Assembly (NCBI RefSeq): GCF_009914755.1
Contig: NC_060930.1
Reading direction: 5' to 3' (one strand)
DNA length: 64,000 bases
Source: the human T2T-CHM13v2.0 reference genome, Homo sapiens
Positions 11,931 to 14,892 of the stretch are shown here, in pieces. The notes under the pieces were generated by a model. That model worked only from the letters and a program-made list of their open reading frames with translations, ran no database searches and was not told the DNA's origin. The translations under genes and the position numbers were made by a program. Positions within the stretch are counted from its first letter, which is position 1. Each line of letters begins with the position of its first letter.

Positions 11931-14892
11931 ATTTTGCTTTGTGTTTTCCAACTTTTATTTTAGGTATGGGGGATACATATGTATGTTTGTTACATGGATA
12001 AATTGTGTGTTGCTGGGGTTTGATATACAAACAATTTTCTTACCCAGGTAGTGAGCTTAGTACTCAATAGGTAGTTTTTCAAAATTCACCCTACTCCTAG
12101 CCTTATCCTTCAAGTAGGTTCCAGTGTCTGTTGTTCTCATCTTTGCATCCATGGGAACTCAAAGTTGAGCTTCCACTTATAAATGAGAACATGTGGTATT
12201 AAGTTTTCTGTTCCTGCATTAATTTGCTTAGGATAATGGCCTCCAGCTCCATTCATGTTGCTGCAGATCACATGATTTTATTTTTTATGGCTGTGTAGTA
12301 TTCCATGGTGTATATGTACCACATGTTCTTTATCCAGTTTACCACTGATGGGCATCCAGGTTGACTCCATGTCTTTGCTATTGTGAATAGTGCTGTGATT
12401 AACATATGGGTGCATGTGTCTTTTTTATATAATGAATGAATATAATGATATATTTCCTTTGGGTATATACCCAATAATGGGATTGCTCATTCTAATGGTA
12501 GTTTTGTTTTAAGTTCTTTAAGAAACCTCCAAACTCCTTTCCACAGTGGCTGAACTAATTTACATTTCCACTAGGAGTGTATAAGTGTTTCTTTTTCTCT
12601 TCAAACTCATCAATAGCTGTTATTTTTTGACTTTTTAATAATAGCCTTTCTGACTGGTATGAGATGGTATCTCATTGTGACTTTTATTTGCATTTCTCTA
12701 TTAGTGACATTGAGCATTTTTTCATATGCTTGTTGGCCATGTGTATGTCTTCTTTCTTGCTGTTGGTGTTTTAGTTGTTGTTGTTTTGTTTTGTTTTGTT
12801 TTTGGTGGAAGTGCCAGGGATATGTCTTCCTTTAAGAAGTGTCTGTTCATGTCTTTTGCCCATTTTTTTATTGGATTGTTTGTTTTTGCATGTTGATTTA
12901 ACTTCCTTGTAGATTTTGGATAGTAGTCTATCGTTGGATGCATAGTTTATGAATATTTTTTCCCATTCTGTAAATTATCTGTTTACTCTGTAGATAGATT
13001 CTTTAGTTTAGTTAGGTCCCATTTATCTATTTTTGTGTTTGTTGCAATTGCATTTGGAGACTTGATCATGAAATATTTGCCAAAGCATATGTAGAGAAAG
13101 TTATTCCCTAGGTTTTCTTCTAGAGATTTTATAGTTTTAGGTTTTACATTTAAGTCTTTGTCTATTTTGAGTTAATTTTTTTTATATAATAAAAGGGTTC
13201 AGCTTCAATCTTTTACATATGGCTAGCCAGTTATCCAAGCATCATTTATTGAATAGGGAGTCCTTTTCCCATGATATATTATTGTCAACTTTGTTGAAGA
13301 TCAAATGATTGTAGGTGTGTGGCTTTATTTTTGGGTTCACTAACCTTTTCCATTGATCTATGTGTCTGTTTTTGTACCAGTACAATGCTGTTTTGGTTAC
13401 TGTTGCCTTGAAGTATAGTTTGAAGTCAGATAGGGTGATACCTCCAGCTTTGTTCTTTTAGATTAGGATTTCTTTGGTTTTGGGGGCTCTCATTTGATTC
13501 TTTGTGAATTTTAGAATATATTTGCCTAATTCTGTGAAAAATGGCATTGGTAATTTGATAGGAATTGCATTAAGTCTGTTAATTGCTTTGAGTGGTATGA
13601 TCATTTTAACAATGTTGATTTCTCCTATCCATGAGCATGAAATGTTTTTTTTCTATTTGTTTCTGTCATCTCTGATTTCTTTCAGCAGTGTTTTGTAATT
13701 CTCATTGTAGAGATCTTTTACCTCTCCGGTTAGCTGAATTTTTATGTATTTTATTACTTTTGTGGCTCTTGTGAATAGGATTGCATTCTTGGATACCATT
13801 TGTTTATAGAAATGCTACTAATTTTTTTACATTGATTTTGTATCCTGAAGCTTTACTGAAGTTGTTCATCACTTCTAGCACCCTGTGAACAGAAAGTACG
13901 GGGTTTACTAGGTATAAAATCAAAACAGAAAATCCAAGTAAACCCAATCAGAAATGACAAAAGGGACATTACCATTGACTTCACAGAAATACAAAAAAAC
14001 TCTGAGACTACTATGAACACCTCTATACACACAAACTAAAAACCTAGAAAATTGGATAAATTCCTGGAAACATCCAAACCTCCCAAGAGTGAACCAGGAA
14101 GAAATCAAAATCCTTAATAGACCAATAATTAATTTCAAAATTGAATCAGCAACAAAAAGCCTACCAATATCAATCAGAAAAAAGCCCTGTACCAGATGAA
14201 TTCATGGCCAAATTACACCAGACATACAAAGAAGAGCTGGTACCAATCCCACCGAAATTATGCCAAAAAATCTAGGAAGAGGGGACACTTCCCTAATTCA
14301 CTCTATGAAGCCAGCATCATTCTGGTACCTAAACTTGGCAGAGACACAATGAAAAATAAAACTTCAGACCAATAAACCAATACTCCTGATGAACACGATG
14401 CAAAAATCTCCAACAAAATACTAGCAAACCAAATCTAGCAGCACATCAAAAAGCTAATCCACCATGATGAAGTAGGCTTTATTTCTGGGATACAAGGTTT
14501 GTTCAACAGATGCAAATCAATAAATGTGATTCATCACATAAATATAACTAAAAACAAAAACCACATGGTCATCTGAATAGATGCATAAAAGGATTTTGAT
14601 AAAATATAACATTGTTTTTTGTTAAACACTCTCAACAGACTAGGTAACATAAGTTTGAAGGAATATACCTCAAAATAATAGCCATCTATGACAAACCCAG
14701 AACCAACATCATACCGAATGGGCAAAAGTTTGAACCTATTTCTCTTCAGAACCAGAACAAGGCAAGGATATCCTCTCTCACCACTCCTATTCATCATAGT
14801 ACTAGAAGTCCTAGCCAGAGCAATCAAGCAAGAAAAAGAAATAAAAGGTATATAAACAGAAAGAGGAAGTCAAACTATATATCTTCACAGAT
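11931..14892 (-). mobile_element. L1PA15/16-like element with a twin-priming 5' inversion (sense part about 11931-13922 on minus, inverted part about 13923-14892 on plus)
   Basis: 3'UTR and ORF2 C-terminus on minus. The plus-strand ORF2 segment runs from the RNDKRDITIDFTEIQK region to the FAD-equivalent codons. Degenerate TSD caacaagtttt (11920-11930) vs caacaggttgt (14893-14903). Confidence 0.88.
12756..12820 (-). pseudogene. Retroposed 18-nt tRNA-Ala 3' fragment with CCA plus A-rich tail, inserted in an L1
   Basis: Minus strand reads TCCCTGGCACTTCCACCA (12820-12803) followed by a 47-nt A-rich tail. TSD tatgtcttcttt (12744-12755) / tatgtcttccttt (12821-12833) duplicates the host L1 sequence. 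Confidence 0.75.

What the first reader, a model, noticed from the sequence alone, without database searches (positions are those of the whole stretch)
12744..12833. Retrotransposed 18-nt tRNA-Ala 3' fragment with CCA and an A-tail: a possible genomic fossil of the m1A58 RT stop or of a 3'-tRF
Seen: inside an old L1, the target sequence tatgtcttcttt(t) is duplicated (12744-12755 and 12821-12833) and followed by aa, an L1 endonuclease-type TTTT/AA site. The duplicates flank a 65-bp insert. On the minus strand the insert reads TCCCTGGCACTTCCACCA followed by a 47-nt A-rich tail decayed to (AAAAC)/(AAC) repeats. Established: as I recall, cytosolic tRNA-Ala ends ...GGTTC(A/G)A-TCCCCGGCACCTCCA+CCA. 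The insert matches positions 59-76 at 16/18, and both differences are C>T, one at a CpG. CCA is added post-transcriptionally in eukaryotes, m1A58 blocks reverse transcriptases, and 18 nt is the length of tRF-3a fragments. Inference: L1 ORF2p copied either an oligoadenylated mature tRNA and stalled exactly at m1A58, or an adenylated 18-nt 3'-tRF. This is the opposite architecture to the known tail-less 5' tRNA retropseudogenes. It is too short for repeat annotation, so a genome-wide class of such inserts could be overlooked. On the plus strand it also forms a PBS-like or tRF-target site (TGGTGGAAGTGCCAGGGA).
Basis: partly seen in the sequence, partly recalled or inferred. Interest (0 to 1): 0.85.

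Follow-up and report, generated by a model that had tools for sequence, protein, structure and literature searches.

The report
Retro-inserted 18-nt tRNA-Ala tail fragment
A 65-base insertion inside an old LINE-1 is a reverse-transcribed copy of only the last 18 bases of mature alanine tRNA plus an A-rich tail, and its relatives elsewhere in the genome carry a mutation scar at the base where a tRNA methyl group hinders reverse transcriptases.

Summary
On the minus strand, window 12744-12833 reads: 13-nt target-site duplication, TCCCTGGCACTTCCACCA, 47-nt A-rich tail, duplication again. Five other L1 copies have the target once, without the insert, at a TTTT/AA site in L1 ORF2.

The 18-mer matches positions 59-76 of ARAGORN-verified tRNA-Ala genes plus CCA: 16/18 for the common genes and 17/18 for one variant gene.

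It is not alone in the genome. Among 30 fetched hits of an Ala 3'-end+CCA+AAAA pattern, seven are tRNA-Ala fragments with A-rich tails. Six of them have duplications. They start at position 59 (this locus and one other), 54-56 (three), 39 and about 45. One tRNA-Cys locus shows the same 18-nt architecture.

Copies that run past position 58 rarely keep the A. Among hits ending in exact CCA, 10 of 10 Ala hits and 20 of 29 hits pooled over six isoacceptors are non-A there, mostly T. Among hits without exact CCA, 6 of 73 are non-A. This looks like an m1A58 misincorporation scar.

Best reading: L1 reverse transcription of mature, modified tRNA, aborted at m1A58. A pre-cut 18-nt tRF-3a template is not excluded. 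The predicted sharp peak at position 59 was not shown (2 of 7). I found no description of this in the papers I could search.

The parts
12821..12833 (-). 5' copy of the target-site duplication (minus strand AAAGGAAGACATA)
   Evidence: It matches the other copy at 11 of 12 positions. Paralogous L1 copies carry this sequence once.
12803..12820 (-). tRNA-Ala positions 59-76 (15 nt of T stem, acceptor stem and discriminator, plus CCA): TCCCTGGCACTTCCACCA
   Evidence: unique in the genome. It is 16/18 to ARAGORN-verified Ala genes L039, L040 and L044 plus CCA, and 17/18 to variant gene L043 plus CCA.
12756..12802 (-). Decayed A-rich tail, 47 nt, 68% A, (AAAAC)/(AAC) repeats
   Evidence: Relative L083 has a very similar tail.
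12744..12755 (-). 3' copy of the target-site duplication (minus strand AAAGAAGACATA). Base 12756 sits where the 13th base would be.
12830..12835 (+). Remnant of the L1 endonuclease nick site (now CTTT/AA; TTTT/(A/G)A in paralogous L1 copies)
12600..12990 (-). Host element: old L1, ORF2 3' region, sense on the minus strand. The insert sits just after the codons for ...KWAKDMNRHFLKEDI.
   Evidence: 72-78% identity to six other L1 copies; the translation matches human LINE-1 ORF2p residues 1062-1085 of PDB chain 8sxt_A, E = 4.4e-8.

Best explanation
The 65-bp insert is a LINE-1 (ORF2p) target-primed reverse-transcription product. Its template was mature, CCA-ended, m1A58-methylated cytosolic tRNA-Ala joined at its 3' end to an A tract. 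ORF2p nicked a TTTT/AA site inside an older L1 and primed on the A tract. It copied CCA and then positions 73 down to 59, and stopped at m1A58. The 18-nt cDNA plus tail was then sealed in, which created a 13-bp target-site duplication. The A tract came either from oligoadenylation of the tRNA or from an early template jump from the poly(A) of an L1, Alu or mRNA template onto the tRNA's CCA end. Shown: the insertion, the duplication, the nick site, the tail, the tRNA-Ala identity, the CCA, a family of related inserts, and loss of A at position 58 in read-through relatives. Inferred: that the stop at 59 was an RT arrest on a longer tRNA, and where the A tract came from.
For: (1) L1 hallmarks are present: a 13-nt duplication, a TTTT/AA site, an A-rich tail, and an empty site in 5 of 5 paralogous L1 copies that span the junction. 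(2) Identity: 16/18 to verified tRNA-Ala genes plus CCA, and 17/18 to variant gene L043. A random 18-mer lies within 2 mismatches of any of about 60 tRNA ends with probability about 1e-6. (3) Family: the pattern Ala 15-mer+CCAAAA (up to 2 mismatches) gave 45 hits against 9 for the reversed control. Of the first 30, which I fetched, 7 are tRNA-Ala 3' fragments with tails. These are this locus and L079 starting at position 59, L083 at 55, L084 at 54-56, L080 at about 54, L081 at 39 and L098 at about 45. (4) The longer relatives show that templates longer than 18 nt were used, and that they were modified. With the T loop spelled out and position 58 left free, the 10 Ala hits that end in exact CCA and keep the T loop read T (5), G (3) or C (2), and never A. 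This count leaves out the one verified gene with genomic CCA. Pooled over Ala, Phe, Asp, Cys, Gln and iMet, 20 of 29 such hits are non-A, against 6 of 73 hits without exact CCA (Fisher p = 1.4e-9). (5) Passages of PMC4787781 say that m1A causes both RT arrest and misincorporation, and that a 5'-m1A-U-3' context gives efficient dATP misincorporation. That would read as T in the sense strand. tRNA-Ala has U59, and T is the commonest scar. (6) A-tailed Ala copies mostly carry CCA. There were 8 hits at up to 1 mismatch with CCA, 6 of them verified as tRNA-derived. There were 3 hits without CCA, 1 of them verified.
Against: Only 2 of the 7 inspected Ala copies start at 59, and three start at 54-56, so arrest exactly before m1A58 is not the dominant outcome. 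Lengths of 18 and 22 nt are also the sizes of tRF-3a and tRF-3b (PMC7472051 passage), so pre-cut fragments explain the short copies equally well. As recalled, nuclear surveillance adenylates tRNA that lacks m1A58, which fits poorly with an adenylated and methylated template. No experiment shows how L1 ORF2p behaves at m1A. The pattern required A's straight after CCA, so it cannot reveal copies with L1 or Alu sequence between CCA and the tail. The flanks of 15 of the 45 hits, and of nearly all hits for other isoacceptors, could not be fetched. In one search, 'gene' versus 'retrocopy' was assigned by rule (exact CCA or not) and was ARAGORN-verified for only three places.
Confidence: 0.55

Rival explanations
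1. The template was a pre-existing 18-nt 3' tRNA fragment (tRF-3a, positions 59-76, already cut from mature tRNA-Ala). It was oligoadenylated, or reached by a template jump from a poly(A) tail, and copied to its 5' end by L1 ORF2p. No RT arrest is needed.
For: The insert is exactly 18 nt and ends in CCA. A PMC7472051 passage gives two 3'-tRF sizes, 17-19 nt and 22 nt. The short relatives fall into these two classes: 18 nt (this locus, L079, Cys L107) and 22 nt (L083) or 21-23 nt (L084, L080). A 22-nt fragment would still contain m1A58, which fits the G and T read at 58 in L083 and L084.
Against: Longer copies with the scar, starting at 39 and about 45, prove that longer modified tRNA templates were used. 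As recalled, full-length tRNA is far more abundant than tRFs. Stalling before, or a few bases after, a bypassed m1A also predicts ends at 59 and at 54-57. No data exist on adenylated tRFs.
Confidence: 0.3
2. The 18-mer is not tRNA-derived. The insert is an extremely 5'-truncated L1-mediated retrocopy of some other polyadenylated RNA whose last 18 nt happen to resemble tRNA-Ala plus CCA.
For: Eighteen bases cannot be assigned with certainty. The exact 18-mer matches no tRNA gene. ARAGORN and Rfam see nothing in the window region. A first-stage scan of many windows makes rare coincidences findable.
Against: The chance of a match within 2 mismatches is about 1e-6 per insert. Both differences from the gene are C>T, one at a CpG. 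None of the 8 fetched near-matches looks like a parent 3' end. The same genome holds a family of undoubted A-tailed tRNA-Ala 3' copies, including a second 18-nt one.
Confidence: 0.07
3. The insert is the remnant of a longer tRNA-Ala retrocopy whose 5' part was later deleted, so the start at 59 is an accident.
For: Longer A-tailed copies exist (L081, L098). The locus is old and has diverged.
Against: The 5' duplication copy abuts base 59 directly, and the host L1 continues colinearly on both sides. A deletion would have had to end exactly at the duplication boundary. The same boundary recurs at L079 and at Cys locus L107.
Confidence: 0.05
4. The plus-strand TGGTGGAAGTGCCAGGGA is a primer-binding-site remnant of an LTR element, or a selected target site for 3' tRFs.
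For: It is complementary to the tRNA-Ala 3' end at 16 of 18 positions.
Against: No LTR end lies upstream; the T/G-rich complement of the tail does. The unit is framed by an L1-type duplication. The annotated lncRNA runs on the minus strand, so its transcript carries the sense copy. The two mismatches are A opposite C, not wobble pairs.
Confidence: 0.02

Closest known systems
Tailless tRNA retropseudogenes (Schmitz et al. 2004, cited but not held; Noll et al. 2015, PMC5322556, passages read)
   Same: They are L1-dependent retro-insertions of tRNA pieces with target-site duplications, and the truncations map to defined positions.
   Different: Those keep the tRNA 5' end, are 3'-truncated and lack A tails. 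The 2015 screen required at least 30 nt and a near-complete 5' end. This insert is the 3'-terminal 18 nt with CCA and an A tail, so such screens could not have found it.
Poly(A)-extended snRNA processed pseudogenes (Doucet et al. 2015, PMC4476161, passages read)
   Same: A small, normally non-polyadenylated RNA is followed directly by an A tract, flanked by duplications at L1-type sites. The same two models apply: an early template switch from L1 poly(A), or recruitment of an already adenylated RNA.
   Different: Those are snRNAs, mostly full length or 3'-truncated. Here the RNA is a tRNA with CCA, cut down to 18 nt at a modified base.
tRNA/LINE-1 chimeric insertions (bioRxiv 10.1101/2025.02.02.635956, passages read)
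   Same: tRNA fragments are co-inserted by the L1 machinery within one duplication.
   Different: The 21 reported loci are about half-length 5' pieces (1-37), mostly antisense to an attached L1 segment, and are ascribed to twin priming. Here there is a sense 3' fragment with an A tail and no co-inserted L1. The surrounding L1 is the target.
The 18-nt primer-binding site of retroviruses and LTR elements, set by plus-strand strong-stop synthesis ending at m1A58 of the primer tRNA (recalled textbook knowledge, not checked in a call)
   Same: The same 18 nucleotides of a tRNA (59-76) are copied into DNA, and the same modified base sets the limit.
   Different: That happens during LTR-element replication and leaves the complement next to an LTR. 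Here a non-LTR (L1) event leaves the sense copy with an A tail.
3' tRNA fragments tRF-3a (17-19 nt) and tRF-3b (22 nt) (PMC7472051, passage read)
   Same: The lengths and end points match the 18-nt and 22-nt inserts.
   Different: tRFs are RNAs. No genomic retrocopies of them came up in my searches.
CCA-bearing tRNA pseudogene of mouse (a 1982 Nature report, recalled only)
   Same: A genomic tRNA copy carrying the post-transcriptional CCA, taken as evidence of reverse information flow.
   Different: As recalled, that was a near full-length copy. No link to m1A58 or to 18-nt fragments is known to me.

Membership tests
L1 (ORF2p) target-primed retro-insertion | Target-site duplication flanking the insert | tested here: met
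   A 13-nt duplication with one substitution per copy. Flank similarity this strong occurred in 15 of 5000 random placements.
L1 (ORF2p) target-primed retro-insertion | Nick site resembling TTTT/AA | tested here: met
   The site is now CTTT/AA. Five paralogous L1 copies show TTTT(A/G)AG at the site.
L1 (ORF2p) target-primed retro-insertion | 3' A-rich tail next to the 3' duplication copy | tested here: met
   A 47-nt tail with 32 A.
L1 (ORF2p) target-primed retro-insertion | Empty site in orthologues | not testable with these tools
   No other primate genome is held. Paralogous L1 copies served as a surrogate.
Derived from mature cytosolic tRNA-Ala | Sequence identity to the tRNA-Ala 3' end | tested here: met
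   16/18 to L039, L040 and L044 plus CCA, and 17/18 to L043 plus CCA. All are ARAGORN-called tRNA-Ala genes.
Derived from mature cytosolic tRNA-Ala | CCA present that is not in the gene | tested here: met
   Seven of the 8 verified genes lack CCA after the discriminator. L039 has it by chance in the genome. Only the two Cs are informative, because the final A merges with the tail.
Derived from mature cytosolic tRNA-Ala | Detection by tRNA finders | tested here: not met
   ARAGORN found 0 genes in the window and Rfam found 0 matches at E up to 10 in 12700-12880. This is expected for an 18-nt piece.
RT-arrest product at m1A58 | 5' end at position 59 | tested here: met
   The duplication abuts base 59.
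RT-arrest product at m1A58 | Template carried m1A58 | tested here: inconclusive
   This cannot be read from an insert that stops before position 58. Relatives that pass 58 are non-A in 10 of 10 (Ala) and 20 of 29 (pooled) hits.
RT-arrest product at m1A58 | L1 ORF2p arrests or misreads at m1A | not testable with these tools
   No paper on this came up. It needs biochemistry.
tRF-3a retrocopy | 17-19 nt, ends in CCA, starts in the T loop | tested here: met
   18 nt, positions 59-76. Size class from PMC7472051.
tRF-3a retrocopy | The template was already an 18-nt RNA | not testable with these tools
   The sequence is identical under both models.
Tailless retropseudogene | No A tail; tRNA 5' end retained | tested here: not met
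   It has a 47-nt A-rich tail and only the 3' 18 nt. Criteria from PMC5322556.
LTR primer-binding site | Adjoins the end of an LTR | tested here: not met
   The upstream plus-strand sequence is the complement of the tail, inside an L1-type duplication.

The most novel reading that the evidence does not exclude
Human germline L1 retrocopies of mature tRNAs form an overlooked fossil record of a tRNA modification. When ORF2p meets m1A58, it either aborts or reads through. Aborting leaves 18-nt tRNA-tail+CCA+A-tract micro-insertions too short for repeat annotation. Three were seen with duplications: Ala twice and Cys once. Reading through writes a non-A base, mostly T, at position 58 (20 of 29 CCA-ending copies). 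If this is general, such copies would report the in vivo bypass spectrum of L1 reverse transcriptase, the modification state of germline tRNA over tens of millions of years, and a route by which CCA-ended tRNAs acquire or meet A tracts.
Probability: 0.5. Interest if true: 0.75.

Novelty: new variant of a known kind. Interest (0 to 1): 0.65.

Why it matters
L1-mediated copying of small RNAs is well known, and so is the m1A58 limit of the retroviral primer-binding site. What I did not find in print is a class of A-tailed, CCA-bearing tRNA 3' micro-insertions whose 5' ends and position-58 errors record an RNA modification in genomic DNA. If this holds, three things follow. It gives a natural read-out of how L1 ORF2p handles a hard-stop modification in the germline. 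It shows that some very short 'orphan' A-tailed insertions have an identifiable template. It also makes the question of adenylated versus template-switched tRNA substrates testable by genome census and by TPRT assays with methylated and demethylated tRNA. For annotation, it explains an unmasked 65-bp interruption of an L1.

Tried and rejected
(1) ARAGORN on the window and Rfam on 12700-12880 at E up to 10 found nothing. The piece is too short for either.

(2) The near-matches of the 18-mer (347 hits against 73 for the control) are mostly chance. Of the 8 fetched, only this locus and L005 (the same place as L080) look tRNA-derived. The reversed control contains a CpG and is therefore too low.

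(3) Of the first 30 of 135 hits to the Ala 15-mer, one is a tRNA gene (L027). None has CCA plus an A tail.

(4) An internal control with a second free position (A67: 45 hits against 13) was swamped by hits that look like MIR SINEs (family recalled) and was dropped.

(5) The Thr and Leu patterns were swamped in the same way. Lys and part of Phe were swamped by hits whose upstream bases look like ERV primer-binding-site flanks. The Lys A-tail pattern gave 25 hits against 34 for the control, so there was no enrichment. None of these were used in the tallies.

(6) Rows dropped before the position-58 tally are as follows:
- The verified gene L039.
- C20:64387964 (Ala, no T loop).
- Seven Phe hits with two T-loop mismatches.
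- Three tandem C4 hits for Gln, which read C at position 58, so dropping them is conservative.

(7) My first, looser tally (25 of 38 against 0 of 58; notebook) was replaced by the rule-based one.

I used a stop-free 40-residue piece against PDB sequences instead.

(10) Schmitz et al. 2004 is not held. Its text and all supplements were unseen and may bear on the novelty claim.

(11) The start of L098 is uncertain. The best duplication (9/10, reached in 121 of 5000 random placements) would leave 18 unexplained bases. The tRNA-like part starts at about position 45.

(12) L109 (Cys) has no T loop directly upstream, but its 3' flank was not seen, so it is not counted as an 18-nt case.
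Full report
**Observation**

On the minus strand the order is:
- ...CTTCTT | AAAGGAAGACATA (12833-12821)
- TCCCTGGCACTTCCACCA (12820-12803)
- a 47-nt tail, AAAACAAAACAAAACAAAACAACAACAACTAAAACACCAACAGCAAG (12802-12756; 32 A, 12 C, 2 G, 1 T)
- AAAGAAGACATA (12755-12744)

The insert is 65 bp. The exact 18-mer occurs once in the 3.1-Gb assembly.

**Host and empty site**

The minus-strand translation just upstream of the insert (...KKWAKDMNRHFLKEDI) matches human LINE-1 ORF2p residues 1062-1085 in solved structures (8sxt_A, E = 4.4e-8). I removed the insert and one duplication copy in a script and compared the result with the window and all fetched loci.
- It aligned colinearly across the junction with four other L1 copies in the window and one in L064, at 74-78% identity.
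- A further window hit (21633-21450) also spans the junction but was not put in the alignment.
- In a MAFFT alignment the five copies carry the target once, as ...ATG(T/C)CTTCTTTT(A/G)AGAAGTGTCTGTTCAT..., apart from a few substitutions, with nothing at the insert position.

The ancestral site was therefore TTTT/AA, the L1 endonuclease consensus. The duplication was 13 nt, and each present copy has one substitution. Flank similarity this strong arose in 15 of 5000 random placements of the same geometry in the fetched loci.

**Identity of the 18-mer**

ARAGORN called tRNA-Ala in 8 of 8 loci that I fetched from hits to a degenerate Ala 15-mer.
- Three of these genes (L039, L040, L044; anticodons AGC or TGC) end TCCCCGGCACCTCCA. 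Four (CGC or TGC) end TCCCCGGCATCTCCA. With CCA added, the insert matches the first type at 16/18, and both differences are C>T, one at the CpG.
- The eighth, variant gene L043 (chr6 cluster, T:T mismatch in the T stem), ends TCCCTGGCACCTCCA, which is 17/18.
- A gene-like hit in the same cluster (C6:28610213, not fetched) has ...CACTTCCA, the insert's other T.
- Relative L080 shares both Ts.

One or both 'mutations' may therefore have been in the source gene. Seven of the 8 genes lack CCA after the discriminator. L039 has it in the genome by chance.

A random 18-mer lies within two mismatches of one given 18-mer with probability 2e-8, or about 1e-6 for some 60 distinct tRNA ends.

**Relatives in the same genome**

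The pattern Ala 15-mer (three Y positions) + CCAAAA, with up to 2 mismatches, gave 45 hits against 9 for the reversed pattern. I fetched the first 30. Seven are tRNA-Ala 3' fragments followed by A-rich tails.

| Locus | Place | tRNA part | Tail | Duplication (random placements as strong, of 5000) | Base at 58 |
|---|---|---|---|---|---|
| this locus | window 12744-12833 | starts at 59 | 47-nt AAAAC-type | 11/12, abutting (15) | not covered |
| L079 | C3:47700405 | 18-mer TCCCCAGCACCTCCACCA, starts at 59 | 12 nt | 14 matches with one 4-nt indel, abutting, at TTTTT/AAAAAG (26) | not covered |
| L083 | C12:10574618 | 22 nt, 55-76 | 48-nt AAAAC-type | perfect 15 bp (0) | G |
| L084 | C19:43894461 | 21-23 nt | A16 | 10 bp (20) | T |
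| L080 | C4:91504589 | 23 nt, ends CTA | A-rich | none found | A |
| L081 | C4:97512952 | 38 nt, from position 39 | A18 | 11 bp (17) | T |
| L098 | C5:150504027 | tRNA-like from about 45 | A/G-rich | weak (121) | T |

Of the other 23 fetched hits:
- 4 belong to an unrelated interspersed repeat;
- the rest show no tail or tRNA context and look like chance, which is in line with the control count.

A-tailed Ala copies without CCA are rarer. There were 3 hits at up to 1 mismatch, one of them seen to be tRNA-derived (L110, a long copy with a single C and A at 58). With CCA there were 8 hits at up to 1 mismatch, six of them tRNA-derived.

**A scar at position 58**

I searched GTTCR-N-[Ala 15-mer]-CCA with up to 2 mismatches and got 23 hits against 3 for the control. 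I sorted the hits by one rule: whether the last three letters are exactly CCA.
- Twelve hits end in exact CCA. One is the verified gene L039 (A at 58). One lacks a T loop and was dropped.
- The other ten read T (5), G (3) or C (2) at 58, and never A.
- The 11 hits not ending in exact CCA read A (7) or T (4). Those four end CCT, GCA, GCA and CCC, each one change from CCA.
- The scar appears with both A57 and G57 T loops, so there was more than one source gene. T58 also falls in the B-box region. A single T58 master gene is therefore unlikely.

I applied the same rule, plus a T loop with at most 1 mismatch, to other isoacceptors.

| Isoacceptor | Non-A at 58 among exact-CCA hits |
|---|---|
| Ala | 10 of 10 |
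| Phe | 3 of 7 |
| Asp | 4 of 7 |
| Cys | 1 of 2 |
| Gln | 1 of 1 |
| iMet | 1 of 2 |
| pooled | 20 of 29 |

Hits without exact CCA are non-A in 6 of 73 (Fisher p = 1.4e-9). Passages of PMC4787781 state that m1A leaves both an arrest and a misincorporation signature, and that a 5'-m1A-U-3' context gives very efficient dATP misincorporation. That would read as T in the sense strand. Ala, Phe and Asp all have U59.

Three caveats apply:
- The tallies were made by eye from the printed matches.
- 'Gene' versus 'retrocopy' is assigned by rule and verified at only three places.
- The limit of 2 mismatches selects young copies.

**Other isoacceptors with the 18-nt build**

The Cys A-tail pattern gave 16 hits against 1 for the control.
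- L107 (C6:130060630-130060720, minus strand) reads ...CTAAAAAAAGCTATG | ATCTGGGTGCTCCCTCCA | (AAT)n-type tail | TTTTAAGAAGCTGTG. This is tRNA-Cys 59-76 plus CCA, abutted by a 9/11 duplication. It has the same architecture in another isoacceptor.
- L108 keeps the T loop, with one A missing from the A57-A59 run.
- L109 has no T loop directly upstream, but its 3' flank was not seen.

**Mechanism**

Shown:
- an L1-type insertion of tRNA-Ala 59-76 with CCA and an A tract;
- a family of such inserts;
- modified templates longer than 18 nt among them.

Inferred:
- ORF2p primed on the A tract at a TTTT/AA nick, copied CCA and the acceptor and T-stem strand, and ended at m1A58.

Ends at 54-56 fit stalling just after a mispair at 58, but they also fit 22-nt tRF-3b templates. 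The 18-nt ends likewise fit tRF-3a (sizes from PMC7472051).

The A tract has the two origins already proposed for poly(A)-extended snRNA pseudogenes (PMC4476161). One is an early template switch from an L1 poly(A) tail. The other is recruitment of an adenylated RNA. My A-tail pattern required A's straight after CCA, so it cannot weigh these two.

I put the reading of RT arrest on a longer modified tRNA at 0.55, a pre-cut tRF template at 0.30, and the remaining rivals at 0.14 in all (0.07, 0.05 and 0.02).

**Comparison with what is known**

- Tailless tRNA retropseudogenes have the opposite build, and the 2015 screen needed at least 30 nt and a complete 5' end (PMC5322556).
- The 21 reported tRNA/L1 chimeras are antisense 5' halves (bioRxiv 10.1101/2025.02.02.635956).
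- The 18-nt limit at m1A58 is textbook for retroviral primer-binding sites (recalled).
- Searches for tRNA retrocopies linked to m1A, CCA, polyadenylated tRNA or misincorporation returned no paper describing A-tailed 18-nt tRNA 3' inserts or a position-58 scar in genomic copies.
- Schmitz et al. 2004 and all supplements were not seen, and the library lacks most subscription journals. Novelty is therefore probable, not certain.

**Verdict**

The locus is a member of a small, apparently undescribed variant of L1-mediated small-RNA retrocopies. The 'sharp peak at 59' remains untested genome-wide.

Noticed in passing
L039 (G000:C6:28478400-28478700), gene at 130-204: A tRNA-Ala(AGC) gene whose discriminator is followed by CCA in the genome itself, so ARAGORN nt. 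It is the only exact-CCA hit that has A at position 58.
   Followed up: partly
L043 (G000:C6:28567100-28567400) and unfetched G000:C6:28610213-28610236: Variant tRNA-Ala genes in the chr6 cluster. L043 ends TCCCTGGCACCTCCA and has a T:T mismatch in the T stem. The other, judged only from its matched string, ends ...CCCCAGCACTTCCA. Between them they carry both Ts of the insert, so the source may have been a variant gene.
   Followed up: partly
L085, L097, L099, L102 and four unfetched hits: An interspersed repeat family that contains ...GAGTCCATT(G/T)(C/T)AC TCCCTGCCACCTCCACCAGAACAGG... inflates the counts for the Ala pattern. It is unrelated to tRNA and I did not identify it.
   Followed up: no
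(many places, e.g. G000:C11:33572747): Patterns for Thr, Leu and the A67-free Ala control pick up many GTTCAAATCCCAGCTCTGCC-type hits, which I take from memory to be the tRNA-like head of MIR SINEs. All keep A at the position-58 equivalent.
   Followed up: no
(e.g. G000:C7:66048202, C24:18516632, C22:19011497): The 18-mers of tRNA-Phe and tRNA-Lys plus CCA recur with fixed non-T-loop bases upstream (GTCCCC..., CTTCAT...), some of them in duplicated regions. They look like the reverse strand of ERV primer-binding sites. I did not look further.
   Followed up: no
G000:C4:7308754-7309001: Three hits to the tRNA-Gln-type 24-mer lie exactly 112 bp apart, which suggests a tandem repeat with a tRNA-like segment.
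   Followed up: no
L081 (G000:C4:97512952 region): This 38-nt Ala copy starts at position 39, two bases 3' of position 37, which as recalled is m1I in tRNA-Ala(AGC). 5' ends of longer copies may mark other RT-blocking modifications, but n = 1.
   Followed up: no
window 12803-12820 and L039-L046: Mature tRNA-Ala ends ...CCA-CCA, because positions 71-73 already read CCA. As recalled, a CCACCA 3' end is a degradation tag on unstable tRNAs. Whether this bears on the many Ala retrocopies is speculation.
   Followed up: no
L108 (G000:C10:27109341-27109366 plus the match): A tRNA-Cys CCA+A-tail copy keeps the T loop but has two instead of three As at positions 57-59. This could be a one-base skip at m1A58 or an ordinary deletion.
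   Followed up: partly
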